Shown: piece after piece, positions 1,127 to 64,000 of the stretch | Layout of the letters: each line of letters begins with the position of its first letter | Numbering within the stretch: the stretch's first letter is position 1 | DNA from: Naegleria gruberi | Lineage: Eukaryota | Direction: 5' to 3' (one strand) | DNA length: 64,000 nucleotides | Assembly: GCA_000004985.1 (NCBI GenBank) | Contig: GG738885.1 | Notes under the pieces: model-generated | The model's input: the letters and a program-made list of their open reading frames with translations, nothing else | What the model was told of the DNA's origin: nothing | Databases searched by the model: none | Position numbers and translations under genes: made by a program

Positions 1127-1613
1127 TTTTCCATTTCTATTAAATGAAAATGCAATATCAATTACTGGTTGGCTAGTTAGCACTTGTTATCTACTTGCTC
1201 GTCTAAATATCAACCTAACAAAAAAAATCTCAGTTAGATTTGATACGTTTCACTTTGTGGATAATGTAATTATTATTATCAACAACAGTAAACATATTTC
1301 TATTTAAATATTTTATGGAAATATTCATCAATTTTAGATAAATTTATCAAAATTATTAAATTTTTTAATTCTTTGCTCATTTCCAATAAAAATTGATTTC
1401 AATAACATTATTTTCAAATAGTTGTAATCTTTCAAATCCAATGTTGTTATTATCAAAATAAGTATTTACGATAAAATTATATTTTCAGAAATATTTTCAG
1501 ATAACGAAATAAATAATTAGTATTATAATTTAAATTATTACTAAAAACATCTTTAAAATCATAAATAGTTTCAATATATTCAATCAGTCTATTGGGATTA
1601 TTCAAAAAAGAAG

Positions 1614-1617
1614 AAAA
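1614..1617 (-). terminator. Pol III T-run terminator of the minus-strand 5S gene (A4 on the plus strand, extended by aaaaaag further on).
   Basis: A T-run lies immediately 3' of the 5S 3' end on the minus strand. Confidence 0.5.
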
Positions 1618-1735
1618 GACTACAGCACCACAGGTTCCCAAGTTGTCTCCAACCTCAGTACTGATGTGGCTCGACGATGCTTAACTTCTCAAATCGGACG
1701 GGATGAGGTGCATTCATCGTGATATGGCCGTAGTC
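1618..1735 (-). rRNA. 5S: 5S ribosomal RNA gene, copy A, minus strand.
   Basis: The reverse complement reads gactacggccatatcacgatgaatgcacctcatcccgtccgatttgagaagttaagcatcgtcgagccacatcagtactgaggttggagacaacttgggaacctgtggtgctgtagtc. This matches the universal 5S consensus (GnnTACGGCCATAC...ATCCCGTCCGATnTGnGAAGTTAAGC...GTACTnnGnTGGGnGACnnCnTGGGAAnnCnGGTGCTGTAnnC). It is about 95% identical to copy B. Confidence 0.85.
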
Positions 1736-1799
1736 ATTTATCTCCTTAATTCTTAGTATACAAACAATCTCATACCACTACCTAATTAAGCAATTGGAC

Positions 1800-3050
1800 C
1801 TAATATTGTAGTTTTTCAAAAACTATCTTCATGTTTTGTGGTAAATCTAATTCAGGTTTGTTGAACCCCTTCGAATAAATTAGTTTTTCTAATTTTGGTA
1901 ATTTCAATAAAGATTCCAATCCAAACTGGTCTATTTCAGCATATTTGATGGAGAGTTCCTTAATGGACTCGAATTTAGAGAAATGTTCTGCTAATTCATT
2001 GGTAATACTAAACATTTTAAAGGTTTCCAATTGTTTAAACGTTTCAGGGTTCAACCTAGCGAGATTTTCCCCATATCCACCATCCTCAAATGAAAGCTCT
2101 TTCAATTGACTATTTTTGGAAATTGAATCCATCAAATAATCAGAAAAATCAGCATATGACAAGCTTAATCTCAATGTTTTGACATTCTCGCAAAATGGTA
2201 CTCCAAATCCTTCAATTCGTTCTCCATGCAAAGTAATCTTCTCTAAATGTTTCAACTTATTTATGGCTGCAAATGATTCAACAACTTGCTCACTTGTTGG
2301 ATCTTCTGTAATTTCACCTCTTATTAGATAAATAACGGAATATATCTCTTTAAGATTCTTCCAATTTTCAAATATTTCTGGCGCTGTAAAAATTGATGTT
2401 AATGACTTGTTTTTGAAATATTCTAATTGAGGAGTGTTTTTTGATATTTCAATAAAATGTTCAATTAATGAGCTTGAATCAATACAATCCAATGTCAATT
2501 TCTTCAAATTTCTACACTGTGCAATTAAAGAAGCCAAGCTGGAGAGACCATAATCACTATTAGAATAATAATCACATCTAATATAAATATTTTCCAAACT
2601 TGGAAATTTTTTCAATGCCCATTGAGAAACATATTCTGGAAGATAGTCACTAGATAACTGAATTGATTTAACCAAATCTGTATCCACATTTTTGAATGTT
2701 CTTTCCAAATTTTCAATTACTTTTTCTTTAGTATTATGTTTCTGGAGGTTTGGTTTCAAAATATTTGATTTTTCACCTTCTATCAAGTCAATTCTCTTTC
2801 CATCATTGGCACAAAGTTCAATATTTATCACTTGTCTTTCAAATGATTCTTCCACCCTCGTTTGGTCCCAACACAAATTCTTGAATAAGAAGCAAATATT
2901 TCCTGTTGGAAATCTTCCAAAATAATACTTGAAAAATGTTGAAGATTTTCTACTGCACAACTTGGCTTCAAATTCTAAATAGGACAAAATTTCCATTATG
3001 ATTTCTGATGGAAGCTGGTGATAGAGTTCACCACCATCATGTGTTGACAT
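1800..3050 (-). CDS. F-box-like / leucine-rich-repeat protein, 416 aa.
   Basis: Complete ORF. The N-terminal LPSEIIMEILSYLEFEAKL is an F-box-like motif. It is followed by irregular L-rich repeats (LKKLTLDCIDSSSLIEHFIEISKN...). Confidence 0.55.
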   Translation of the reverse strand: MSTHDGGELYHQLPSEIIMEILSYLEFEAKLCSRKSSTFFKYYFGRFPTGNICFLFKNLCWDQTRVEESFERQVINIELCANDGKRIDLIEGEKSNILKPNLQKHNTKEKVIENLERTFKNVDTDLVKSIQLSSDYLPEYVSQWALKKFPSLENIYIRCDYYSNSDYGLSSLASLIAQCRNLKKLTLDCIDSSSLIEHFIEISKNTPQLEYFKNKSLTSIFTAPEIFENWKNLKEIYSVIYLIRGEITEDPTSEQVVESFAAINKLKHLEKITLHGERIEGFGVPFCENVKTLRLSLSYADFSDYLMDSISKNSQLKELSFEDGGYGENLARLNPETFKQLETFKMFSITNELAEHFSKFESIKELSIKYAEIDQFGLESLLKLPKLEKLIYSKGFNKPELDLPQNMKIVFEKLQY

Positions 3051-3388
3051 TTTTTTTTAAAATTGGCTATTTTTCAAAGTTCATCTAAGCGCTATCCTGA
3101 AAGATTGAAATGTAAAATTCATTTAAATTGAGAATAGAGTGATGTTGCATTTGTAACAACTTTATTCCTGATACTGTAACCATGTAGTGTTGTTTGTTAC
3201 AATTGTTATTGCAAAATTCTAATGATTGTTAACAATTAGCTAATAGTTAATAAAGATGAGATGATCATAGACACAATAGTATCAATTTCATCAAGTGGAA
3301 ATGTTGATAATTAAATATTCTGATGAATAGTTTACTTTCTAAAACGTTCGGTAATCCTTTCCATGAACTTTAAGATCAACAAAAAAAA
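3051..3388. promoter_or_regulatory. Shared divergent promoter region between the minus-strand F-box/LRR gene and the plus-strand 352-aa gene.
   Basis: A 338-bp AT-rich spacer lies between two head-to-head start codons. This is inference from gene arrangement only. Confidence 0.3.
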
Positions 3389-4447
3389 ATGCAAAGATCA
3401 CAACAACAGCAAACCATCAAACTCACCAAAGCAAAACAAAAGAAAACAATTTCTTCAGAAAGATTGCCAACAGAAACATTTATATCCATTGTTAGAGATT
3501 GTGTAAAATTACAACTTGATATTAGACCTTTACAATTCAAAAAGAAAATCTCTAACGGAACCAGAGACTTTCTTTGTGATAAGGTAAAGAATTCGAAGGC
3601 AGTTTGTCGAGAAATCAATAGAGGAGATAATGTCATGATGAATATAATTTTCACATGTCAAGATTCTCAACCAATAATTCCAAATTATATTAAGGGAGTA
3701 ACGAGTTATATTGAAAAGCATAAAATTTCGTACCCAGACAAGATCATGTCAATTGACACTTTACGAATTGATATTGAATTTCCGTACCATAATTCAATAA
3801 CAGAGGTTGCTAAGAAGATTAATTTACATGAGGAAGAATCATTGATCAATTCTCTTATAACCATTATTGATAAGGATGATCATCAAGTGTATTTCAAAAT
3901 GAAAACTAATTATTGCAATGAGGATAAGGAACATTTGTATAGATACATTGTAATTGGAAAAATGGATCAAAGTGAGCATGCTTTCATCTTTGATGTGAGC
4001 GATTTTATAAATATTTGTGGTATCAATGGTGGTATTCCAAAAAATCTCAAAAAGATTTATGATTTGTGCATGCCAAAGGATTTAGTCCAATATTTTGAAA
4101 AGAATGGATGCAGCTCAACAAATTCAGATACAAGTGTCAGAAGAGTTGGATTTGGAATGTTCTTCAGATCAGATACCAGACCACGCAGAGAGCGTTTCGG
4201 ACAATACTACCGCCCATGTTGGGAATCAGATGGTTCAGTTGCAGCCTTAGTGAACTCGTACTCAAGGAATGGAGATTATGGTATTCAAATATTGGCACAG
4301 GGCGCAAGAGAATTCCATCCAACTGAGTATTCTGGTGAGATTGATGTAGGATATTACAAATTTAAAATGGGATGGTGTAGATTCACTTCATTCCAATCAG
4401 CCCAGCACTACACTTGCAAATTAATCCAGGAAGTTAAAAATTCATAA
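3389..4447 (+). CDS. Hypothetical protein, 352 aa, no recognisable domain.
   Basis: Long complete ORF with eukaryote-like codon usage and Q-rich, K-rich N-terminus (MQRSQQQQTIKLTKAKQKK...). No motif I recognise. Confidence 0.45.
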   Translation: MQRSQQQQTIKLTKAKQKKTISSERLPTETFISIVRDCVKLQLDIRPLQFKKKISNGTRDFLCDKVKNSKAVCREINRGDNVMMNIIFTCQDSQPIIPNYIKGVTSYIEKHKISYPDKIMSIDTLRIDIEFPYHNSITEVAKKINLHEEESLINSLITIIDKDDHQVYFKMKTNYCNEDKEHLYRYIVIGKMDQSEHAFIFDVSDFINICGINGGIPKNLKKIYDLCMPKDLVQYFEKNGCSSTNSDTSVRRVGFGMFFRSDTRPRRERFGQYYRPCWESDGSVAALVNSYSRNGDYGIQILAQGAREFHPTEYSGEIDVGYYKFKMGWCRFTSFQSAQHYTCKLIQEVKNS

Positions 4448-4640
4448 ATATTGAATTTTATTCTGCTACGATTTCTTTTTGAACTTCGATCATAAATTGG
4501 TAAAGGCAAAATGTGTCCAATAAATAGAAGATTGATCAACCGTTTCAAATTCTTCAACCAAACCTTGCTGAACTAAGAATCTTTACGTTTTGTTCCAAGT
4601 ATATATTGTTATTTAAATACCAGAAATTAAGGAGATAAAT

Positions 4641-4758
4641 GACTACGGTCATATCACGATTCATGCACCTCATCCCGTCCGATTTGAGAAGTTAAGCATC
4701 GTAGAGCCACATCAGTACTGAGGTTGGAGACAACTTGGGACCCTGTGGTGCTGTAGTC
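4641..4758 (+). rRNA. 5S: 5S ribosomal RNA gene, copy B, plus strand.
   Basis: gactacggtcatatcacgattcatgcacctcatcccgtccgatttgagaagttaagcatcgtagagccacatcagtactgaggttggagacaacttgggaccctgtggtgctgtagtc is followed by ttttt. It carries the canonical 5S blocks (TACGG..CATA, ATCCCGTCCGAT, GAAGTTAAGC, GTACT, CTGGGA, GGTGCTGTAG). Confidence 0.9.
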
Positions 4759-4763
4759 TTTTT
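4759..4763 (+). terminator. Pol III T5 terminator of 5S copy B.
   Basis: ttttt lies directly after the 5S 3' end. Confidence 0.6.
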
Positions 4764-5529
4764 ATTTTCAACCTTTTATCATGAGAGGAAATGATTGTTG
4801 GTTCGAATCAAGTGTTCCTTTATAGAAGTCCTTTCAAAATGAAATATTCTTTTGCAAACCATGTTAAGAGTTTTACAACTTTTTCAAAATTCCAAAATGT
4901 TTCTATTATTTAACAGAGCGAGAAATCATACCAGATGAATACTCACAGGACAAAATTGAGAAGGAACAACCACTTTGATTATTGACCAAATTCTAGCTAC
5001 TCATCCTCTGAGTGAAAGGAGGAGAGTTTCCAGATTCACATTTCAGTCTTCATGATCTCTGAAATGTCCTTCTAGGTAAGTATGAAGAAAGCAAAGAGTG
5101 CAAATTCAAACAAATCTTAAAAACCTTTCCAGATGTATTTATTTTTGAAAATTGAATTATTGTCATTGTTTGTTTTTTTATGATTTGAATTCTTTGAAAT
5201 TGTTGAACATGAAGTAAACACCGAGTTGACATAATTATATTGAAATTTATGTAGGATGTGAATTGAATCAGAAATTCAGACAGTTCAGAAGAGAATAACG
5301 AAAATTCAACTGTGCATAATTGAATATTTTGGTTTTATTTACAATGGTTGCCTAGGCTTACAAAATTTTATGGAGTTCACCACATTTTGAATTGTTTGTT
5401 TCTCATTTCAACAGTATTCTGTGATTGAGATTTGGAAGTTTTACTTGTTTCACTTCCAATAGAAGTAATGTTTGAAATAGATGAAGTTTCAATTTCGATT
5501 TGATTAAGAAAATATCAAACCAAAATTTG

Positions 5530-5957
5530 GATCAAGCAACTCAACATGGCAAATGTTCAATAAATACGAGGGTGATCAACCTTTTCAAATTCTTCAAACA
5601 AAACCTGAACCAACAAGATTCTGTCTTCGTTGCCTTCACTGTTCATACAGTCAAAGACTGTAGCGGGATAGTCGCCATATTCCTGGCAGGCTTCCCGTCC
5701 AAAATTACAAATGATAAACAAACAATAATTCTGAAAATTGCATCAGAACAACAGTGTGATATCATCACAGGAGGTGTACACCATGTACTACTTCATCTGG
5801 GAGTTGAGTATAACCACATCTGCTCTCGTAAAATGTTATTCCTTTGAGAACAGGAGTCAAGGCTTCCTTATTATCACCTCTCTTCAAGATGACCATATTC
5901 AATGGTCCCCCTCATGGCCGAATCATAAGCTAGGATATCTATATCTTCTTCAGTCAT
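5530..5957 (-). CDS. Possible small spliced minus-strand gene; exon structure unresolved; hypothetical.
   Basis: Minus strand has ATG at 5957 (MTEEDIDILAYDSAMRGTIEYGHLEE...) followed by gtgata. A GT..AG-bounded AT-rich stretch follows, then a 3' open frame ending ...GREACQEYGDYPATVFDCMNSEGNEDRILLVQVLFEEFEKVDHPRIY*. I could not find a phase-consistent join. The track instead lists a plus-strand ORF 5500..5847. Confidence 0.2.
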
Positions 5958-6398: not shown

Positions 6399-6857
6399 AT
6401 GCAATTATTTGTCAAGACACTCACTGGAAGAACCATCACTTTGGAGGTTGAATCTAATGATTCGATTGAAAATGTGAAAAGAAAAGTGCAAGATAAGGAA
6501 GGAATTTCACCAGATCAACAAAGACTCATCTTTGCAGGAAAACAATTGGAAGATGGCAGAACTATTAATGATTACAACATTCAAAAAGATTCAACTCTTC
6601 ATTTGGTGTTGAGATTAAGAGGAGGAATGCAACTTTTTGTAAAAACCTTAACTGGAAAGACAATTACAATTGAAATGGAATCGATTGATACTGTTGAGAA
6701 TATGAAACAAAAGATATTTGATAAGGAAGGTATTCCATCAGATCAACAACGATTGATTTATGCCGGTAAGCAATTGGAAGATGGAAGAACTATAAGTGAT
6801 TACAATCTTCAAAAGGATTCAACTGTGCATTTAGTATTGAGATTGAGAGGAGGTTAA
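6399..6857 (+). CDS. Divergent di-ubiquitin-like protein: two tandem 76-aa ubiquitin-fold repeats, each ending in RLRGG.
   Basis: Repeat 1 is [76 protein letters not shown]. Repeat 2 is [76 protein letters not shown]. Both are roughly 80-85% identical to canonical ubiquitin. K48 and K63 are retained. Start is taken at the ATG at 6399, because the track ORF start at 6339 would add a 20-aa leader before MQLF. Confidence 0.75.
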
Positions 6858-8437: not shown

Positions 8438-8657
8438 TAAACCTTTCAATTATTATTTGGAAGATGTGACAATAAAGAATTATTTAATGTTTGGTTATAT
8501 ATCTATTGTTTTATCTCCTTAATGAAATTAATTGTTAATTACAAATAATTATTGGTTAGTATTTTTCACATTTCTCCACAATCACCAAATAGTAAAAAAT
8601 CATCACTATTGAATCGTCCTCCGAATTTAAAACCACACAGACAGACAACAGAAAAAA

Positions 8658-57639: not shown

Positions 57640-59079
57640 TTAATGTTTTCTTGGTGATTGTCTTATAAAAGATAATTGAGATGAAGATCCAAGTCTTGGT
57701 GAAGTTCCTAATCTTGTTGTTGCGTATGGATCAGTAATGGTTGGATTTACTTGACTCAATCTCTCTGCAAAACTTGAACCCATCAAATTTGAATGAGTTG
57801 GAAGAGAAGATGATAAACCATCATCTAATTGACGTGGACTTGGAATTGGAATACATGTTGGTTTTGGTGAAAAGCTTGACTTTCTCTGTGGTGAAGTATA
57901 ATCAGTTGTTCCTCTCGGAGTTGTAGATCCTCTGAGTGGGCTTGATGAAGGATTCAAATTGTTAACAGCAACTCCTGGAATATTAACTGGTGGTTGAGAT
58001 GAAGGTGGAAGAGAGTGAGATCTTCTACTTCTTTCAATTAAATCTTCAGCTGATCCTGTTGGTATCAACTTTGATTTAATATTTTGATTAAATTCTCTTT
58101 CAGATGAAATTTCCAAATCAAATTCATCTTGCATCTTTTGTGAATCCATTTCTTTTCTCTTTTCCATTTCACGTTTAATCTTTTGTTCTAAAATAAAGTT
58201 TTCACTTTCCAATCTTGAGTATTCCTTTAATAATTTCAAATTCTTTTGTCTATAATTATCACCATCAGAAGCTAATCTCTTTTGTTCCTTGTTAAGAATT
58301 TCAACTTGTTCACTCAATTTTTGTACAATATCAGTCTTATTTTCATTGTTGAGATTTTGTAAAATATTTTGAACTCCTTGCAAAACTTCACTTCTTTCCT
58401 TTTCAATTTGTTTTTCAATTTCACTATTATAATAATAATATATTAAATAATATTTTAAATCATTTAATATTTAAATAATAATAACAACTTACTATTTTTC
58501 ACTCAAAACAGATTCTAATTGTTTTCTCAATTGAGTAACAATATATTCCTTATCTTGTTTTAATTTACTTTCAATAAAAATTTTTTCTTGTTGAACCTTT
58601 TCAAGTTTCTTTTGTAAAGTATTTGTTAACAATTCTTCTTCTTCTTCAACTTGTTTAACAAGTGTTTCTTTTTCCTTCTTTAATCGATTTAATTTCTTCA
58701 TCAATTTATTTGTTATTAATTCTTCTTCCTCTTCAACTTGTAATTGCTTTTAATATTTGTTATTATTATTATGATGATGATGATTATTGTTATTGTAATA
58801 TATAAGAGTAATAATAATAATAATAATACGGAATATATTATCATCATGTTAAGAAAATAAATAACAATATAAAATACATACAAGGTTAGTATTTGCATTT
58901 TGTAATTTTTCAATCTTTGATTTTAATTTAATATTATCATTTTCTAAATCTTTAATACGTTGTTTATATTGTTCAATCTCCGATAGTGGTATTGTTATAT
59001 TAACAACACTACTACTAGTAGTAGTAGTAGAAGTAGTAGCAGTATGCATATTATTACTTGTTTCTTGTTGTTGTTGCAT
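57640..59079 (-). CDS. CCDC6-like coiled-coil protein, 3 exons: complement(join(57640..58423, 58493..58746, 58882..59079)); about 411 aa.
   Basis: Exon 2 encodes ...QVEEEEELITNKLMKKLNRLKKEKETLVKQVEEEEELLTNTLQKKLEKVQQEKIFIESKLKQDKEYIVTQLRKQLESVLSEK. Exon 3 encodes ...ENFILEQKIKREMEKRKEMDSQKMQDEFDLEISSEREFNQ then an S/P-rich tail. This parallels CCDC6 (..EEEFLTNELSRKL.QL..EK..LE..LEQEQEF.VNKL.KK...; ENLRLQRKLQREMERRE..ESSLEMDDERYFNE; P/S-rich C-terminus). Introns: GTATGT...AAAAG and GTAAGT...TAATAG, joins in frame. Confidence 0.55.
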
Positions 59080-59426
59080 TTTTTAATAGGTTAGGTCCTA
59101 ACCTTTAAAATCAACAAAGCCTAATGAGAGGAGTAATCAAAGAGAGAATCTCTCTTTTGTTAATCGATGTGTTGTAATATTACAATACATCATGTACACA
59201 GTTAAAGTGTGTTAGATCAGAGGTCATAACATCAAGCTTGTTATATTATTATATAATTTAACAAGTGTGAAAGGGTCTTTTAATGGTAAAAAAACAATTA
59301 TTAATTTTAAAAATAATATTTCAAGTCAATCGGAAGTGCATAAGCGAATGATCGTGTTGATAATTACAAAATCGGATTTAGGAACGATTAAAAAATCTAT
59401 TTTCAACGTCTATGTTGTCGTGTTAT

Positions 59427-60821
59427 TTATTGATCTTGTTCATTCATTTCATCACACACTTGAGTGGATGATATGATAATTTCTTCTACTTCATATTGTT
59501 GTGATGATGATTGTTGTTGATTATCATTGAAATTTGAAATTGTTGTTGTACAACACTGTGTATCTAGTGGGGAGATAGAGGTATTATTATTATTAGTATT
59601 ATTGGTATTATTAATATCACTATCATTAGATTGATGAGTTGTATTATAATGATATTGATCTGTTATTAGTATATTCTTATTAATGGAATGAATTAAAAAG
59701 TGGAGAAGTGTTTTGTATTGTCTTTCATTGGTTGGATCCAAGCTTGCAACTTCCAAATAAGGTAAAATTTCATATTGAATAAATTCCTGATAAAAAGATC
59801 TATCTAATTTACATCTATTTAATAAATCATCATATCTTAATAAAGTTTGTTGTGATGTTTTAATAACATGTTGATATTCATTCTTTAATAAATTATATGA
59901 TTTAATCATGTTATTATATTTCATTTCAATTAATTCAATTTCAGATTTAATATTTGATTGAACTTGTAATAAATTATCTTGTCCATTTAATAAATAATCT
60001 AATCTTAATGTTAAATGCTTATTTGTATTATAAAGTGTCCATGATTCAATTTGTGATTTTTCATTTTGTATTTTATAATTATTTACTTGTTCTTGTAATG
60101 AACTATTTACATTCTTAATTTGATTTAATTGATTAAAATAATCTTGTCTTGTTAATCTTAATCTTTTTAATTGTTCAATAGATTCTGTTTGAATTTGTTC
60201 ATATTTACATCTTAGGTGATTAATATTTTCATCATATTGTAATATTAAATGTTGATATTGTTGAATATTTGAATTTAAATCTTCAATTTCTTTACAATAT
60301 TTAGAAATATCTTCTTGATATTTTAATTCTAAATTTTCATATTCTGTTTGTAAACTTTGATATTCAATCTTGGCTATTTGAATTAATTTATCACTATTAT
60401 TATTAGTAGTAGAAGTATTATTAGTATTATTGTTAATAGTATTATTATTAATAGTATTAGTATTATTAATAAAATATTGTTGGTTATTTTCCTTCTTATA
60501 AATAGTCATCAGCTCTTTCATATCTCTTTGATGTTTAAGTTGTAATTGTTGATATTGAGATTGTAAAACATTTAATTCTACTTGATGGAATTCAAGTAAT
60601 TCCTTATATCTAGTTTCCATATCTTGTAATTTAACATTTAAATGTGAAATTGTTTGTTGATACATTGGTATATCAATTTCCATAATAGGTGTTACTTGTT
60701 CTTTCATTGATTCTAATTGTTTTTCATTGTGTGAATGAATAACACGATCCACACAACCTTGTACAAATAATGAAATATAATCTCTATTAGTATTTTGTAT
60801 TGTATTATCCATATTATTCAT
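59427..60821 (-). CDS. Coiled-coil protein with N-rich and poly-N/T segments, 464 aa; hypothetical.
   Basis: Complete ORF. Extended heptad-rich helix (LQSQYQQLQLKHQRDMKELMTIYKK..., ELKYQEDISKYCKEIEDLNSNIQQYQHL...). Confidence 0.5.
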   Translation of the reverse strand: MNNMDNTIQNTNRDYISLFVQGCVDRVIHSHNEKQLESMKEQVTPIMEIDIPMYQQTISHLNVKLQDMETRYKELLEFHQVELNVLQSQYQQLQLKHQRDMKELMTIYKKENNQQYFINNTNTINNNTINNNTNNTSTTNNNSDKLIQIAKIEYQSLQTEYENLELKYQEDISKYCKEIEDLNSNIQQYQHLILQYDENINHLRCKYEQIQTESIEQLKRLRLTRQDYFNQLNQIKNVNSSLQEQVNNYKIQNEKSQIESWTLYNTNKHLTLRLDYLLNGQDNLLQVQSNIKSEIELIEMKYNNMIKSYNLLKNEYQHVIKTSQQTLLRYDDLLNRCKLDRSFYQEFIQYEILPYLEVASLDPTNERQYKTLLHFLIHSINKNILITDQYHYNTTHQSNDSDINNTNNTNNNNTSISPLDTQCCTTTISNFNDNQQQSSSQQYEVEEIIISSTQVCDEMNEQDQ

Positions 60822-60928
60822 TGTAATAACTGTTTGTCTTAATAAATTACTAATCTTGACATTGGTATTTTCAATATGTGTTTGATATTGTACAGTTTTA
60901 GAAAGTAAATGTGGATTAACATCAATAC

Positions 60929-61825
60929 TTATACCATTATTATTATTATGGTATTACTGGAATTGATTGTAGTTGGTGAAGATATTGTAGTACTAGTAGT
61001 AGTAACAGTAGTTGTTGTTGTATTATTACTATTGTTATTAGTAGTATTACTCTGAGAAAGCTTTTGAACTTGACTTTGAAGGAATTGATTTCTATTCTTT
61101 AAACTTTCACACTTATTTTCATTTTCCTTGATAATTTTCTTAGCTTCTTCATGCAATCGTTTAAATTCATCTTTATCCATTTCACTATTTTGTAAATCAA
61201 TTCTTAACTTTCTAACTTGTTCTTCTAATTGTTGATTCTTTTCTGTTACTTGTTGATATTCTTGATTGGTAAATAAATGTTGTTGGACAATTGAACTATT
61301 AAGAGAGTTATTAGTGTTGGTAGTAGTACTAGTGGTAGTTGTAGTACCATTAATTGTAGTATTCAATTTAGAAGTATCTAAAAGGCTATTAGTATCATTA
61401 ACTCCTAAACGTTTTCTCTTATTACTTTTAATCAATTCAGAATCACCCTGTGTAAATATATATCCAGTAGATGCACCATTTGTACTTGTAATAGTGGAGA
61501 GAGGTAATCTATTTGATGATGTATTGATAATAGATTTGTATGATTTAATTGGTGTATAGGAAGGTGTTGAAGTGGTAGTAGTATTACTGTTGTTGGCCAT
61601 CTTTAAACGGTCAGAGATTAGGCTTGTTGAAAGTGATGATGCTGATGATTTATAATTTAATAGGGAGGCAAACGGTGAAGGGGTGGTTGATGTGGTAGTG
61701 TTGTTGTTTGATATTGTTGTTGTTGGTCCTCTACCAACAAGGTATTGATGTTGTTGTTGTGGTTGATGATGATGATCAGAGTTTGTTGCTCCTTGTTGTG
61801 AATGATAGTGGTATCGATGACTCAT
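60929..61825 (-). CDS. N/T/S-rich protein with a C-terminal coiled coil, 298 aa; possibly the 5' part of the same gene as 59427..60821.
   Basis: Complete ORF (MSHRYHYHSQQGATNSDHHHQ...). The frame downstream of its stop stays open into the next ORF's Met. A GTATAAGT donor at its last codons and a CAAG acceptor could join the two in phase. This join is weakly supported. Confidence 0.4.
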   Translation of the reverse strand: MSHRYHYHSQQGATNSDHHHQPQQQHQYLVGRGPTTTISNNNTTTSTTPSPFASLLNYKSSASSLSTSLISDRLKMANNSNTTTTSTPSYTPIKSYKSIINTSSNRLPLSTITSTNGASTGYIFTQGDSELIKSNKRKRLGVNDTNSLLDTSKLNTTINGTTTTTSTTTNTNNSLNSSIVQQHLFTNQEYQQVTEKNQQLEEQVRKLRIDLQNSEMDKDEFKRLHEEAKKIIKENENKCESLKNRNQFLQSQVQKLSQSNTTNNNSNNTTTTTVTTTSTTISSPTTINSSNTIIIIMV

Positions 61826-62048
61826 TTTTTTTCACCTTTAAATATTTAACGTTTAGATTTGAAAATTTTGGCGGCAAACAATTTGGAGGGAAAGTTGTGG
61901 ATCTAATTCTATTGCATACCTCTGCTGTATGATAAATTCAACAATGGTTCCTTTGAGGCTTTCTATGATTTAATGAAGTTGAACTATTCGTTCATCCTGC
62001 AGTGGGTGTTATTGTTGAATGATAATGATAATGAAATTGATTTAAAAT

Positions 62049-63062
62049 ATGAAAAATAAGAAACAACAACGAAATGATGGTGCAGTGATCACTGTCAAGC
62101 CTTTGGAAAAATCTTCTCCATCCTCATCATTAACAACAACACTTGGCAATGCAAATACTAATAATAATAACAAATCAGAAAAGTTACAAACAAATATCAA
62201 TGAACAACAACAACATAGTGTAAATAATCAATCAACATCATCACCTACATCAACAACAAAATCATCTACATCAACATCAACATCAACATCAACATCAACA
62301 TCATTAAATAATTTAAATATAATAATACAAGCAATATTATTAAGTATATTAATATTATTTATAATAATATTCATTCCATATTATTATTCATTAGATATAA
62401 TATATATAATATTACCAATTGTATTAATAATATTACCATTACTATTATTTGAAATTTATATTAAAATTAAATCCATCTATTTAGAACATGTACTTTCTGA
62501 ATCTTCTAATTTTATTTATGTATTTTTATTTACATTTACATGTCTTGTATTAATATCAAGTGTTTTATTCTTTACATTTGAAACATTGGAACATTCATAT
62601 TATGATCAATTTGAAGAATTTAATACAATTTCAATATTAGAAAATGATTTACAAAATGAAATATTATATCATTGTTATAATCAAAAGATTTGTTGTGAAA
62701 ATGAATTAATACCATATATATCTGATCATTTAAATTCAATTACAAAATTTAGAAATCAAGAGAAATTTAAAAGAAAACATGCTTTGGAAAATATATTGGA
62801 TTCTATTAGAAGAAATAAATCATTTGAAAAATTAAATGAAACTGAAATTATTCATAATAATAATTCTAATAATAATAATAATAATAATAATAATTCTAAT
62901 AATAATGGTAATAATAATAATAATGGTAATATTTGTTATGAATATAAATATAAATTAAAACCAATGAATATTAAGAAATATATTAAATCACATACTTGGC
63001 ATGATCATGTTCAAACTTTCTTTAAAAGATTAACAAGAGGTTTTGGTTTAACACATGATTAA
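62049..63062 (+). CDS. Hypothetical multi-pass membrane protein with N/S/T-rich low-complexity ends, 337 aa.
   Basis: Complete ORF. Hydrophobic segments IIIQAILLSILILFIIIFIPYYY, IIYIILPIVLIILPLLLFEIYI and FIYVFLFTFTCLVLISSVLFFTF. A (TCAACA)n microsatellite encodes (ST)n at ~62268-62305. Confidence 0.4.
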   Translation: MKNKKQQRNDGAVITVKPLEKSSPSSSLTTTLGNANTNNNNKSEKLQTNINEQQQHSVNNQSTSSPTSTTKSSTSTSTSTSTSTSLNNLNIIIQAILLSILILFIIIFIPYYYSLDIIYIILPIVLIILPLLLFEIYIKIKSIYLEHVLSESSNFIYVFLFTFTCLVLISSVLFFTFETLEHSYYDQFEEFNTISILENDLQNEILYHCYNQKICCENELIPYISDHLNSITKFRNQEKFKRKHALENILDSIRRNKSFEKLNETEIIHNNNSNNNNNNNNNSNNNGNNNNNGNICYEYKYKLKPMNIKKYIKSHTWHDHVQTFFKRLTRGFGLTHD

Positions 63063-63666
63063 TTATTCATTTCTTTTCAATAATAAATAAATATATATTA
63101 AAATGGTAATATATTGTAACCGTTCTTATTTGATTGATAATATCCACAAATATCCATAAACACACAATCATCACATAACACTATTATTAGAAAATTGAGT
63201 ATTATCAATCAAATCAATGAAATTTTCTTATTGTCGGCCATAGAAAATCTCTCAACTAAATTAAAAAAGGCTTCAAATCTCAACAGAGGTTAGCTCTCAG
63301 TTCATCTTCAGCATCACTCCTTGGAGAGAGATCTAAAAAAATCTAAAACCTCTCTTAAATATGTGTATGTAACCTAATAGTAATTTAATAAGAGTAGACA
63401 ATTATAATTATGTTTTAATATATTAAAACGCCCCTTCCTTTGCATCATTTATTTTCATCATCAAATATGGTCCTTTAAAATCAACAATAATTCTCTTCTC
63501 ATGATCGGACAATGTAATTAAATTCGTACTGTACATTATAATTCTCATTATTATTATTCAACCAACATCATATGATCATCATAATTATAAAATAGCCTTC
63601 TTTTCAAATTTATTATTCGGAGGAGGTAATACTTCCAATGCTAACAATGATGTAACTAGTCAAAAT

Positions 63667-64000
63667 ATGATTTCATCATCATCACCTAAACAAGGCTTTT
63701 TATTTGGTTCATCACCTCCAATAGCAAGTTTAATATCTAGTATTCAGGGTCAATTTTCTTCTTCTAATCATCATACAAGTAATAATAATACTCATCAAAA
63801 TAATAATAACAACAATAACAATAATAACAACAATATACTATTAAACATGTTAAGTAATTATGCTATTCAACAACAACAACAACATCAATGGATTGGAAGA
63901 GAGAATGAAATGATACAATATATATTAAAATTATCACATAATCCACTTTCATTTAGGCTTGATGATCATTTCATACAACAAGAAGAAATAGATTCACATA
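63667..64000 (+). CDS. Partial CDS running off the window end; S/N/Q-rich with FG-type dipeptides (LFGGG, GFLFGSS); hypothetical.
   Basis: The frame is open from ~63510 to the window end. The first ATG is at 63667. Low-complexity composition resembles FG-repeat or prion-like regions. The true start may be upstream via splicing. Confidence 0.3.
   Translation, partial: MISSSSPKQGFLFGSSPPIASLISSIQGQFSSSNHHTSNNNTHQNNNNNNNNNNNNILLNMLSNYAIQQQQQHQWIGRENEMIQYILKLSHNPLSFRLDDHFIQQEEIDSH

What the first reader, a model, noticed from the sequence alone, without database searches (positions are those of the whole stretch)
1618..4763. Two outward-facing 5S rRNA genes form an inverted repeat bracketing a 2.9-kb two-gene cassette
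The 118-nt 5S gene occurs twice: 1618-1735 on the minus strand and 4641-4758 on the plus strand. The copies are about 95% identical, each has a T-run terminator, and their 5' ends face inward. The inverted repeat extends ~16 nt beyond the 5S 5' end (atttatctccttaatt), so it is not limited to the mature RNA. Between them lie exactly two divergently transcribed protein genes sharing one promoter region: an F-box/LRR protein and an unannotatable 352-aa protein. Possible explanations: (a) a composite or TIR-type mobile element built from 5S units; (b) a local inverted duplication of a dispersed 5S locus; (c) Pol III/TFIIIC-bound 5S units acting as insulators around a co-regulated gene pair. I know of no described element with this arrangement.
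Basis: seen in the sequence. Interest (0 to 1): 0.65.

Follow-up and report, generated by a model that had tools for sequence, protein, structure and literature searches.

The report
Dispersed 5S rRNA genes in Naegleria
The two inverted 5S rRNA genes are real, but they are ordinary members of the roughly 279-copy 5S gene family scattered through the Naegleria gruberi genome and sit in a small cluster of small-RNA genes, so they are not the ends of a mobile element.

Summary
Two full-length 5S rRNA genes lie 2.9 kb apart with their 5' ends facing inward: 1618-1735 on the minus strand (106 bits) and 4641-4758 on the plus strand (95 bits). They differ at 5 of 118 positions. They share 16 identical upstream bases, and each is followed by a T-run.

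The window is the last 64 kb of Naegleria gruberi scaffold_41. A 2012 paper already lists both genes among 279 putative 5S genes spread over 117 scaffolds. A third copy lies about 0.8 kb left of the window. A previously unflagged U1 snRNA gene (4919-5083, minus strand) sits 160 nt beyond copy B.

By that published table, 207 of 241 5S loci are solitary. Close pairs and triplets are nevertheless far commoner than chance (38 gaps of 6 kb or less, against about 15 expected). This locus is one of 34 such clusters.

I found no target-site duplications, no similarity outside the transcription unit, and no transposase-like fold in the 352-aa orphan protein. No 5S gene lies near five homologues of that protein in other Naegleria. 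The upstream block is partly conserved in other Naegleria 5S genes, which fits a promoter.

Verdict: an ordinary dispersed 5S gene family, and the mobile-element reading is not supported. Why close pairs are over-represented remains unexplained.

The parts
1604..1617 (-). T-run (TTTTCTTCTTTTTT on the RNA strand) directly after 5S-A; Pol III terminator
   Evidence: Read from the sequence. Its first four T's fall within the inverted repeat.
1618..1735 (-). 5S rRNA gene, copy A (canonical sequence)
   Evidence: Rfam RF00001, 106.2 bits, full-length match. Folds into the three-way junction at -40.9 kcal/mol. Corresponds to scaffold_41:300171-300287 in Table S1 of PMC3369914. An orthologous copy is present at the same position in the 97%-identical contig L021.
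1736..1767 (-). Upstream region of 5S-A: the 16-nt proximal block AATTAAGGAGATAAAT (-16 to -1) and the A/T-rich TATA-like GTATAC (about -26 to -21). Inferred external promoter.
   Evidence: Alignments of A, B, L021 and L005. PMC3369914 reports a TATA box upstream of N. gruberi 5S genes and no recognisable TFIIIA.
1800..3050 (-). Protein gene NAEGRDRAFT_51121, 416 aa, F-box/LRR-like. Same orientation as 5S-A and immediately upstream of it.
   Evidence: ORF. Sub-threshold F-box and LRR hits. NCBI/UniProt identity. A 90% paralog, NAEGRDRAFT_65056, lies on another scaffold.
3051..3388 (.). Divergent intergenic region. Positions 3066-3380 are absent from the close relative L021.
   Evidence: BLAST and junction sequences.
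3389..4447 (+). Protein gene NAEGRDRAFT_51122, 352 aa. Naegleria-restricted orphan family of unknown function.
   Evidence: 100% match to the N. gruberi predicted protein. Ten relatives; all six with a named source are Naegleria and four are unnamed environmental sequences. No Pfam or PDB sequence hit. No fold match.
4505..4579 (-). Relic of the 3' end of the minus-strand gene whose intact 3' end is at 5548-5616.
   Evidence: blastn, 79% over 75 nt, E = 2.5e-12. The translated relic RFLVQQGLVEEFETVDQSSIY matches RILLVQVLFEEFEKVDHPRIY*.
4609..4640 (+). Upstream region of 5S-B: the same 16-nt block and a TATA-like TTTAAATAC.
4641..4758 (+). 5S rRNA gene, copy B (divergent variant).
   Evidence: Rfam, 94.9 bits, with three non-canonical pairs flagged. 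Five substitutions relative to A. Folds 6 kcal/mol weaker. Corresponds to scaffold_41:303199-303315 and is the most divergent full-length entry in Table S1 (similarity 0.708 against a modal 0.75).
4759..4768 (+). T-run (TTTTTATTTT) after 5S-B; Pol III terminator.
   Evidence: Sequence.
4919..5083 (-). U1 spliceosomal snRNA gene candidate, convergent with 5S-B.
   Evidence: Rfam RF00003, 38.5 bits (below the gathering score of 69.5), E = 3.5e-6 over the whole window, model positions 1-166. It has an exact AUACUUACCU 5' end, a GAUCAUGAAG loop in stem-loop I, and an AAUUUUG Sm site.

Best explanation
These are two ordinary members of the dispersed 5S rRNA multigene family of Naegleria gruberi, which has about 279 copies. 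They lie in a loose cluster of small-RNA genes: three 5S genes plus a U1 snRNA gene within about 6 kb. The small-RNA genes are interleaved with unrelated Pol II genes.

Each copy is a self-contained RNA polymerase III unit of about 140-155 bp. It consists of an upstream A/T-rich TATA-like element, a conserved block abutting the start site, the gene with its internal control region, and a T-run terminator.

The 'inverted repeat' exists only because two family members happen to lie in opposite orientation. That is one of four equally likely arrangements for two neighbouring genes. Similarity stops at the edges of the transcription unit because only that unit is held constant across the family, by purifying selection and/or gene conversion. 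The flanks are unrelated.

Copy A is canonical, and its position is conserved in a close relative. Copy B is the most divergent full-length copy in the genome and may be decaying.

Shown: identity of the genes, dispersal, local clustering, and absence of transposon hallmarks. Inferred: the promoter role of the upstream block, the homogenisation mechanism, and the functional state of copy B.
For: - Both genes are full-length RF00001 matches, and nothing else in 64 kb reaches threshold.
- The organism is N. gruberi. The 352-aa ORF is 100% identical to a protein on a 362,555-bp scaffold.
- The window maps to scaffold_41:298556-362555. The table coordinates 300171 and 303199 differ from the window positions by -3 and +3 nt, as expected for hits on opposite strands.
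- Table S1 of PMC3369914 lists 279 5S hits on 117 scaffolds. Chaining at 6 kb or less gives 207 singletons, 30 pairs and 4 triplets. Scaffold_41 carries a triplet at 297689, 300171 and 303199.
- Similarity between A and B ends at -16 (clean) or -32 (weak) upstream, and at +4 downstream.
- No direct repeats flank either unit or the whole interval.
- The upstream block recurs in modified form in other Naegleria-type 5S genes. L021, the ortholog of A, has AGAATTA---AGATAAAT. L005, from another Naegleria, keeps AGAATTAA at -19 to -12 plus an A/T-rich stretch around -25.
- PMC3369914 reports a TATA box upstream and no recognisable TFIIIA in N. gruberi.
- Dispersed 5S families are documented in Acanthamoeba (about 100 copies, PMC9528979) and in Yarrowia (108 copies, PMC2566860).
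Against: - The published table gives no strands. I therefore could not show that orientation among close pairs is random.
- Close pairs are about 2.5-3 times commoner than a conservative within-scaffold null predicts. Pure random scatter is therefore not the whole story.
- The 16-nt block is identical in A and B, yet it carries a 3-nt deletion in A's own ortholog. This hints at exchange or shared descent between A and B beyond simple promoter constraint.
- I could compare upstream sequences for only four Naegleria-type copies, not all 279.
Confidence: 0.82

Rival explanations
1. Local small-scale duplication. Copy B, or copy A, arose from its neighbour, or from the third copy just outside the window. 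The event was a DNA-level duplication or ectopic insertion of only the ~140-155-bp 5S unit, landing one or two genes away in inverted orientation. This would be a specific origin story within the dispersed-family picture.
For: - There is a genome-wide excess of 5S neighbours at 1.5-3.5 kb: 22 gaps of 3 kb or less against 7.6 expected, reached in 0 of 5000 simulations.
- The 16-nt block is identical in A and B, whereas A's ortholog in L021 has a 3-nt deletion.
- A relic of a neighbouring gene next to B shows that this interval has undergone local duplication or rearrangement.
Against: - B is the most divergent full-length copy in the genome.
- No flank similarity survives even though the genes differ by only 4%.
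- There are no junction repeats.
- Gene conversion between family members would equally explain the shared block.
Confidence: 0.25
2. Composite or TIR-type mobile element. The two 5S units would act as terminal inverted repeats that mobilise the two enclosed genes.
For: Only the geometry supports this: inverted 138-154-nt repeats bracketing a compact 2.9-kb segment. Both cargo genes also have their nearest paralogs on one other scaffold.
Against: - No target-site duplication.
- Neither cargo protein resembles a transposase, integrase or nuclease by Pfam, by PDB sequence, or (for the 352-aa protein) by fold.
- The paralogs are about 106 locus tags apart, so they are not a pair.
- No 5S gene lies within 10 kb of five homologues in N. 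lovaniensis, N. fowleri and an environmental Naegleria.
- The 'terminal repeats' are members of a 279-copy family that is mostly solitary.
- A third 5S gene and a U1 gene continue the cluster outside the supposed ends.
Confidence: 0.03
3. Chromatin boundary function. Pol III/TFIIIC-bound 5S units would insulate the enclosed gene pair from its neighbours.
For: - By general knowledge, not tested here, TFIIIC-bound Pol III genes can act as boundaries in yeasts and mammals.
- N. gruberi encodes TFIIIC subunits (PMC3369914).
- 5S genes here sit in short intergenic gaps directly behind Pol II genes.
Against: - Nothing singles out this gene pair, since the cluster extends to a third 5S gene and a U1 gene.
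- 315 nt of the supposed shared promoter is missing in a 97%-identical relative. That argues against a conserved co-regulated cassette.
- Most 5S genes are solitary.
- No expression or chromatin data are available.
Confidence: 0.08

Closest known systems
Dispersed 5S rRNA gene families of other microbial eukaryotes: Acanthamoeba castellanii (~100 copies, PMC9528979), Yarrowia lipolytica (108 copies, PMC2566860), and Neurospora crassa and Schizosaccharomyces pombe (the last two from my own knowledge)
   Same: There are tens to hundreds of near-identical 5S genes scattered singly among Pol II genes and unlinked to the large rDNA. Each has its own promoter and T-run terminator. Sequence conservation stops at the borders of the transcription unit.
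   Different: N. gruberi shows a marked excess of loose pairs and triplets spaced 1.5-5 kb apart. As far as I could find, this has not been described. There are no tRNA-5S fusions like those in Yarrowia, and no tRNA gene occurs anywhere in this window.
Cassandra (plants) and Ajax (ribbon worms) TRIM retrotransposons and 5S-derived SINEs (reviewed in PMC10946416)
   Same: 5S-related sequence is present at both ends of a short segment, and 5S promoters are associated with mobile DNA.
   Different: Those elements carry 5S-derived promoter fragments inside direct long terminal repeats. They have primer-binding and polypurine sites, generate target-site duplications and occur in many copies. Here the copies are complete, canonical 5S genes in inverted orientation, with no LTR structure, no target-site duplication and single-copy cargo.
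5S rDNA linked to other small-RNA or multigene families (5S-U1/U2/U5 snRNA, 5S-histone and 5S-spliced-leader repeats; Drouin and de Sa 1995 as cited in PMC10946416; the animal 5S-U1 linkages are from my own knowledge)
   Same: A 5S gene and a U1 snRNA gene lie within 160 nt of each other.
   Different: In those cases the linkage is part of a tandemly repeated unit. Here it is a single juxtaposition in unique DNA, and I could not test whether it recurs in the genome.

Membership tests
Eukaryotic 5S rRNA gene (Rfam RF00001) | Sequence and secondary structure match the covariance model above the gathering score over its full length. | tested here: met
   106.2 and 94.9 bits against a gathering score of 38, model positions 1-120.
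Eukaryotic 5S rRNA gene (Rfam RF00001) | Pol III termination signal (a run of four or more T's) directly after the 3' end. | tested here: met
   TTTT CTTCTTTTTT after A and TTTTT ATTTT after B.
Eukaryotic 5S rRNA gene (Rfam RF00001) | Transcribed and incorporated into ribosomes. | not testable with these tools
   No RNA data. Copy B has five private substitutions, including a broken helix II pair and a changed bulge base at position 63.
Dispersed 5S multigene family | Many copies at unlinked sites. | tested here: met
   279 hits on 117 scaffolds, and 207 of 241 loci are solitary (Table S1 of PMC3369914).
Dispersed 5S multigene family | Flanks of different copies are unrelated outside the gene and proximal promoter. 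| tested here: met
   The A/B alignment shows no similarity beyond -32 and +4. L005 and L021 share only the proximal block. Only four copies could be compared.
TIR DNA transposon / composite transposon | Target-site duplication flanking the terminal inverted repeats. | tested here: not met
   The longest shared direct word in the 30-nt outer flanks is 5 nt, and it is not at the junctions.
TIR DNA transposon / composite transposon | Encoded transposase, or multiple non-autonomous copies with the same ends and cargo. | tested here: not met
   No transposase family or fold was found. The cargo paralogs are not adjacent to each other. There is no 5S gene near homologues in other Naegleria. The N. 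gruberi paralog loci themselves could not be fetched.
Cassandra-type TRIM retrotransposon | Direct LTRs containing 5S-derived sequence, with a primer-binding site and polypurine tract inside. | tested here: not met
   The repeats are inverted, not direct. The interior is two intact protein genes.
U1 spliceosomal snRNA (Rfam RF00003) | Covariance-model score above the gathering threshold. | tested here: not met
   38.5 bits against a gathering score of 69.5.
U1 spliceosomal snRNA (Rfam RF00003) | Conserved functional motifs: AUACUUACCU at the 5' end, the stem-loop I loop, and the Sm site, in order over the full length. | tested here: met
   The alignment spans model positions 1-166, with an exact 5' decamer, a GAUCAUGAAG loop and an AAUUUUG Sm site. 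E = 3.5e-6 for the whole window.

The most novel reading that the evidence does not exclude
In Naegleria, the minimal 5S unit of ~140-155 bp (proximal promoter block, gene and terminator) may itself proliferate at the DNA level. New copies would preferentially land one or two genes (1.5-3.5 kb) away from an existing copy, in the short gaps behind Pol II genes. The inverted pair here would be a footprint of such 'local hopping'. That would be an undescribed mode of Pol III gene dispersal, and it would explain the genome-wide excess of close pairs.
Probability: 0.12. Interest if true: 0.5.

Novelty: already known. Interest (0 to 1): 0.18.

Why it matters
As found, it matters little. Both genes are in a published catalogue of N. 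gruberi 5S genes, and a dispersed 5S family is a known type of organisation. Showing this prevents a false mobile-element call.

Two modest by-products may be useful.
- The published coordinates show that N. gruberi 5S genes are dispersed with a significant excess of loose pairs and triplets. They are not tandemly arrayed, as the source paper's summary table states. This poses a small, tractable question about how Pol III genes spread in a compact protist genome that apparently lacks TFIIIA.
- A convincing U1 snRNA gene scores below Rfam's threshold and sits beside copy B. This is useful for annotating a divergent lineage.

Tried and rejected
- **Fetching the N. gruberi paralog loci.** The look-up of encoding contigs has no record for P0001 or P0002. 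I therefore could not see whether the paralogs NAEGRDRAFT_64950 and NAEGRDRAFT_65056 are flanked by 5S genes.
- **Scanning public collections for Naegleria-type 5S.**
  - The metagenome scan gave 13 contigs, but only L005 is Naegleria-like. The other 12 come from a different organism, and each contig carries a single 5S gene in unrelated flanks.
  - The prokaryotic genome and viral collections gave nothing.
[quoted passage not shown] However, homology does not resume on the other side of 5S-B. No clean insertion site can be shown.
- **Looking for other copies of the 5S unit or its upstream block in the window.** The only find was a 14-nt exact match at 8510-8523 with no gene after it. I treat it as chance or a relic.
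- **Structure of the 352-aa protein.**
  - The two-sequence alignment gave pLDDT 28, which is useless.
  - The 12-sequence alignment gave pTM 0.66.
- **Synteny with N. lovaniensis.** Only a weak NmrA-like coincidence was found. I do not interpret it as synteny.
- **Recovering the ortholog of 5S-B and U1 in the close relative.** Contig L022 starts about 0.9 kb to the right of the U1 gene, and L021 ends 240 nt short of 5S-B.
- **Inferring strands from the RNA_ID numbering in Table S1.** The numbering is not decodable.
- **The original genome paper** (PMID 20211133) is not held in the library.
Full report

Yes. An Rfam scan of the whole window returns exactly two matches above threshold, both to 5S rRNA (RF00001) and both full length. 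One is at 1617-1735 on the minus strand (106.2 bits). The other is at 4641-4759 on the plus strand (94.9 bits).

The repeat finder reports a single long inverted repeat, 1614-1767 against 4609-4762, 154 nt at 93% complementarity. BLAST defines the clean core as 138 nt at 96.4% identity, E = 2e-62. That core comprises 16 nt upstream of +1, the 118-nt gene and the first four T's of the terminator.

The two genes differ at positions 9, 21, 22, 63 and 101. Both are followed by T-runs. The 5' ends face inward, so transcription runs outward.

Between the two genes are two divergent ORFs of 416 and 352 aa. The F-box and LRR matches are below Pfam's thresholds. A 75-nt gene relic lies at 4505-4579. 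The pair is not isolated (see section 3).

**2. Where does the window come from?**

The 352-aa ORF is 100% identical to a predicted protein of Naegleria gruberi on a 362,555-bp scaffold. The two enclosed genes are NAEGRDRAFT_51121 and NAEGRDRAFT_51122.

A 2012 paper (PMC3369914) searched the N. gruberi assembly for 5S genes and lists 279 putative copies with coordinates in its Table S1. Scaffold_41 carries hits at 297689, 300171 and 303199, among others.

If the window is the last 64 kb of scaffold_41 (298556-362555), copies A and B fall 3 nt to either side of the tabulated positions. That is the symmetric offset expected for BLAST hits on opposite strands. Both genes are therefore already catalogued. 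A third 5S gene lies 2.5 kb left of copy A, about 0.8 kb outside the window.

**3. What else is at the locus?**

A relaxed Rfam scan finds a full-length match to U1 snRNA at 4919-5083 on the minus strand. It scores 38.5 bits, below the gathering score of 69.5, with E = 3.5e-6 for the whole window.

The alignment shows the exact AUACUUACCU 5' end that pairs with 5' splice sites. It also shows a GAUCAUGAAG loop on stem-loop I, the second stem-loop, an AAUUUUG Sm site and a 3' hairpin. I regard this as a genuine, divergent U1 gene. It lies 160 nt beyond the 3' end of 5S-B, in convergent orientation.

No other small-RNA match, and no tRNA, occurs in the remaining 59 kb. The locus is therefore better described as a small cluster of small-RNA genes interleaved with Pol II genes. 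The order is:
- 5S (outside the window)
- NmrA-like gene
- SRPBCC gene
- 5S-A
- F-box/LRR gene
- 352-aa gene
- gene relic
- 5S-B
- U1

This follows. Each of the two in-window 5S genes lies just downstream of a protein gene and in the same orientation as it.

**4. How are 5S genes arranged genome-wide?**

I parsed Table S1. The 279 hits lie on 117 scaffolds. Chaining neighbours at 6 kb or less gives 207 solitary genes, 30 pairs and 4 triplets. The family is therefore dispersed, not tandemly arrayed in the classical sense, even though the source paper's summary table scores 'tandem arrangement' as present.

Close neighbours are nevertheless over-represented. I used a conservative null model that keeps the number of genes per scaffold and uses minimal scaffold lengths. 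Under it, 22 gaps of 3 kb or less are observed against 7.6 expected. For 6 kb or less the figures are 38 observed against 14.8 expected. None of 5000 simulations reached the observed values.

The spacing mode is 1.5-2.5 kb, roughly one gene, and almost nothing lies below 1.1 kb. The window's arrangement is thus one of 34 similar clusters. The table gives no strands, so I cannot say whether inverted orientation is typical. For two independent neighbours, head-to-head is one of four equally likely arrangements.

**5. Is the 16-nt extension a terminal-repeat feature or a promoter?**

Beyond the 16 identical bases, A and B share only an A/T-rich TATA-like stretch at about -28 to -21. Two other Naegleria-type copies could be compared.
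- L021 is a metagenome contig about 97% identical to window 4400-1614. It carries the orthologous 352-aa gene, F-box gene and 5S-A in the same order. Its block reads AGAATTA---AGATAAAT, which is the same element with a 3-nt deletion.
- L005 comes from a more distant Naegleria whose 5S differs at 2 of 118 positions. It keeps AGAATTAA at -19 to -12 and an A/T-rich -25 region, within otherwise unrelated flanks.

PMC3369914 reports a TATA box upstream of N. gruberi 5S genes, an internal control region, TFIIIB and TFIIIC subunits, and no recognisable TFIIIA. Conservation of a start-site-proximal element across species, in unrelated surroundings, is what an external promoter element would show.

With TFIIIA apparently missing, reliance on upstream elements is plausible. 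This step is inferred, not shown. The sample is only four copies.

**6. Tests of the mobile-element reading**

- **Target-site duplications.** None flank the whole interval or either single unit.
- **Cargo, F-box/LRR protein.** It has only sub-threshold F-box and LRR matches.
- **Cargo, 352-aa protein.**
  - It has no Pfam family and no PDB sequence relative, even using a 12-member profile.
  - Its family has ten detectable relatives. All six that carry a source name are Naegleria: two more in N. gruberi, two in N. lovaniensis, one in N. fowleri and the paralog P0002. The other four are unnamed environmental sequences.
- **Recurrence.** I fetched about 100 kb around five homologues in N. lovaniensis, N. 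fowleri and an environmental Naegleria. They contain tRNA genes but no 5S gene.
- **Paralogs within N. gruberi.** The nearest paralog of the F-box gene has 90% aa identity, and that of the 352-aa gene has 59%. Both lie on one other scaffold of 602,266 bp, but about 106 locus tags apart, so they are not a pair. I could not fetch that scaffold. Whether 5S genes flank those paralogs is unknown.

**7. State of the two copies**

Copy A has the similarity value shared by the bulk of Table S1 (0.75). Its ortholog in L021 differs at one position.

Copy B is the most divergent full-length entry in the table, at 0.708. Its five private changes include loss of the terminal pair of helix II and a change of the bulged base at position 63. 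Three non-canonical pairs are flagged by Infernal, and the predicted fold is 6 kcal/mol weaker, although the same three-way junction forms.

B may be a decaying copy or a tolerated variant. RNA data are needed to decide.

**8. Local history**

A 75-nt relic at 4505-4579 matches the 3' end of the minus-strand gene ending at about 5557 (79% nt identity, E = 2.5e-12). The translated relic RFLVQQGLVEEFETVDQSSIY aligns with RILLVQVLFEEFEKVDHPRIY*. It sits between the 352-aa gene and 5S-B.

Homology does not resume beyond 5S-B. This shows local rearrangement, but not a clean 5S insertion.

The close relative L021 lacks 315 nt of the divergent intergenic region (window 3066-3380), leaving 24 nt between the two start codons. 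It also has 120 extra nt between the F-box stop codon and the 5S upstream region. The spacers around these genes are thus fluid. That argues against a conserved, co-regulated, insulated cassette.

**9. Comparison with what is known**

Dispersed 5S families are documented in Acanthamoeba castellanii (about 100 copies across most chromosomes; PMC9528979) and Yarrowia lipolytica (108 copies; PMC2566860). From my own knowledge, they also occur in Neurospora crassa and S. pombe.

A review notes that dispersal is an unusual but recognised arrangement. It lists elements carrying 5S-derived sequence: SINEs, Cassandra and Ajax TRIMs, and some DNA transposons (PMC10946416). The present locus fails the defining features of those elements (direct LTRs or TIRs with target-site duplications, and multiple copies). 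It fits the dispersed-family pattern.

Within the searchable library, only PMC3369914 deals with nuclear 5S genes of Naegleria.

**10. Verdict**

The mobile-element interpretation is not supported. The locus is an ordinary part of a known, already catalogued dispersed 5S gene family.

What remains open is why 5S genes in this genome so often have a neighbour one or two genes away. Strand-aware annotation of the full assembly would settle this in an afternoon. Interest is low.

Noticed in passing
window 4919-5083 (minus strand): A full-length U1 snRNA gene candidate scoring below Rfam's gathering threshold (38.5 against 69.5 bits, E = 3.5e-6). It has an exact AUACUUACCU 5' end, a GAUCAUGAAG loop and an AAUUUUG Sm site. 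It lies 160 nt from 5S-B in convergent orientation. A 2008 survey needed unfiltered Infernal searches to look for U1 in N. gruberi (PMC2396436).
   Followed up: partly
N. gruberi genome (Table S1 of PMC3369914); scaffold_41:297689-297805 is about 0.8 kb left of the window: 5S genes are dispersed (207 solitary loci). They nevertheless show a significant excess of neighbours 1.5-5 kb apart: 30 pairs and 4 triplets, with 22 gaps of 3 kb or less against 7.6 expected. The source paper's summary table calls the arrangement tandem. Strand information is missing.
   Followed up: partly
window 3066-3380: 315 nt of the divergent intergenic region between the F-box and 352-aa genes is absent from the 97%-identical metagenome contig L021. 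That leaves only 24 nt between the two start codons there. The segment is single-copy in the window and has only a 9-nt inverted repeat near its ends.
   Followed up: partly
window 4505-4579 (minus strand) versus 5548-5616: A relic of the last ~25 codons of the neighbouring minus-strand gene (79% nt identity) lies between the 352-aa gene and 5S-B. This is evidence of local duplication or rearrangement.
   Followed up: yes
window 8510-8523 (minus strand): A 14-nt exact copy of the 5S upstream block (ATTAAGGAGATAAA) lies in the intergenic gap between the 464-aa gene and the P450 gene, with no 5S or other Rfam hit after it. It could be chance (BLAST E = 0.07) or a promoter relic.
   Followed up: partly
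proteins NAEGRDRAFT_65056 and NAEGRDRAFT_64950 (602,266-bp scaffold, not in the window): The closest paralogs of both enclosed genes (90% and 59% aa identity) lie on the same other scaffold, about 106 locus tags apart. This may be the trace of an old segmental duplication. That scaffold could not be fetched.
   Followed up: no
L001-L004 and L006-L012 (metagenome contigs VFQM/VFQO): Eleven full or nearly full 5S genes from one unidentified protist share the central 27-mer with Naegleria. A twelfth locus, L009, holds only a contig-end fragment. Each contig carries a single copy in unrelated flanks, preceded by a short pyrimidine-rich TTTC/TTATC motif. This looks like another dispersed 5S family.
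   Followed up: no
window 58000-64000: G+C drops to 23-27% at the scaffold end, against about 31-34% elsewhere, with short simple repeats at 60395-60465, 62231-62303 and 62854-62924.
   Followed up: no
window 6399-6857 (plus strand): A di-ubiquitin-like gene with two ubiquitin-family domains whose two halves are 76% identical at the DNA level (228-nt direct repeat). It is conserved in the related metagenome contig L022.
   Followed up: no
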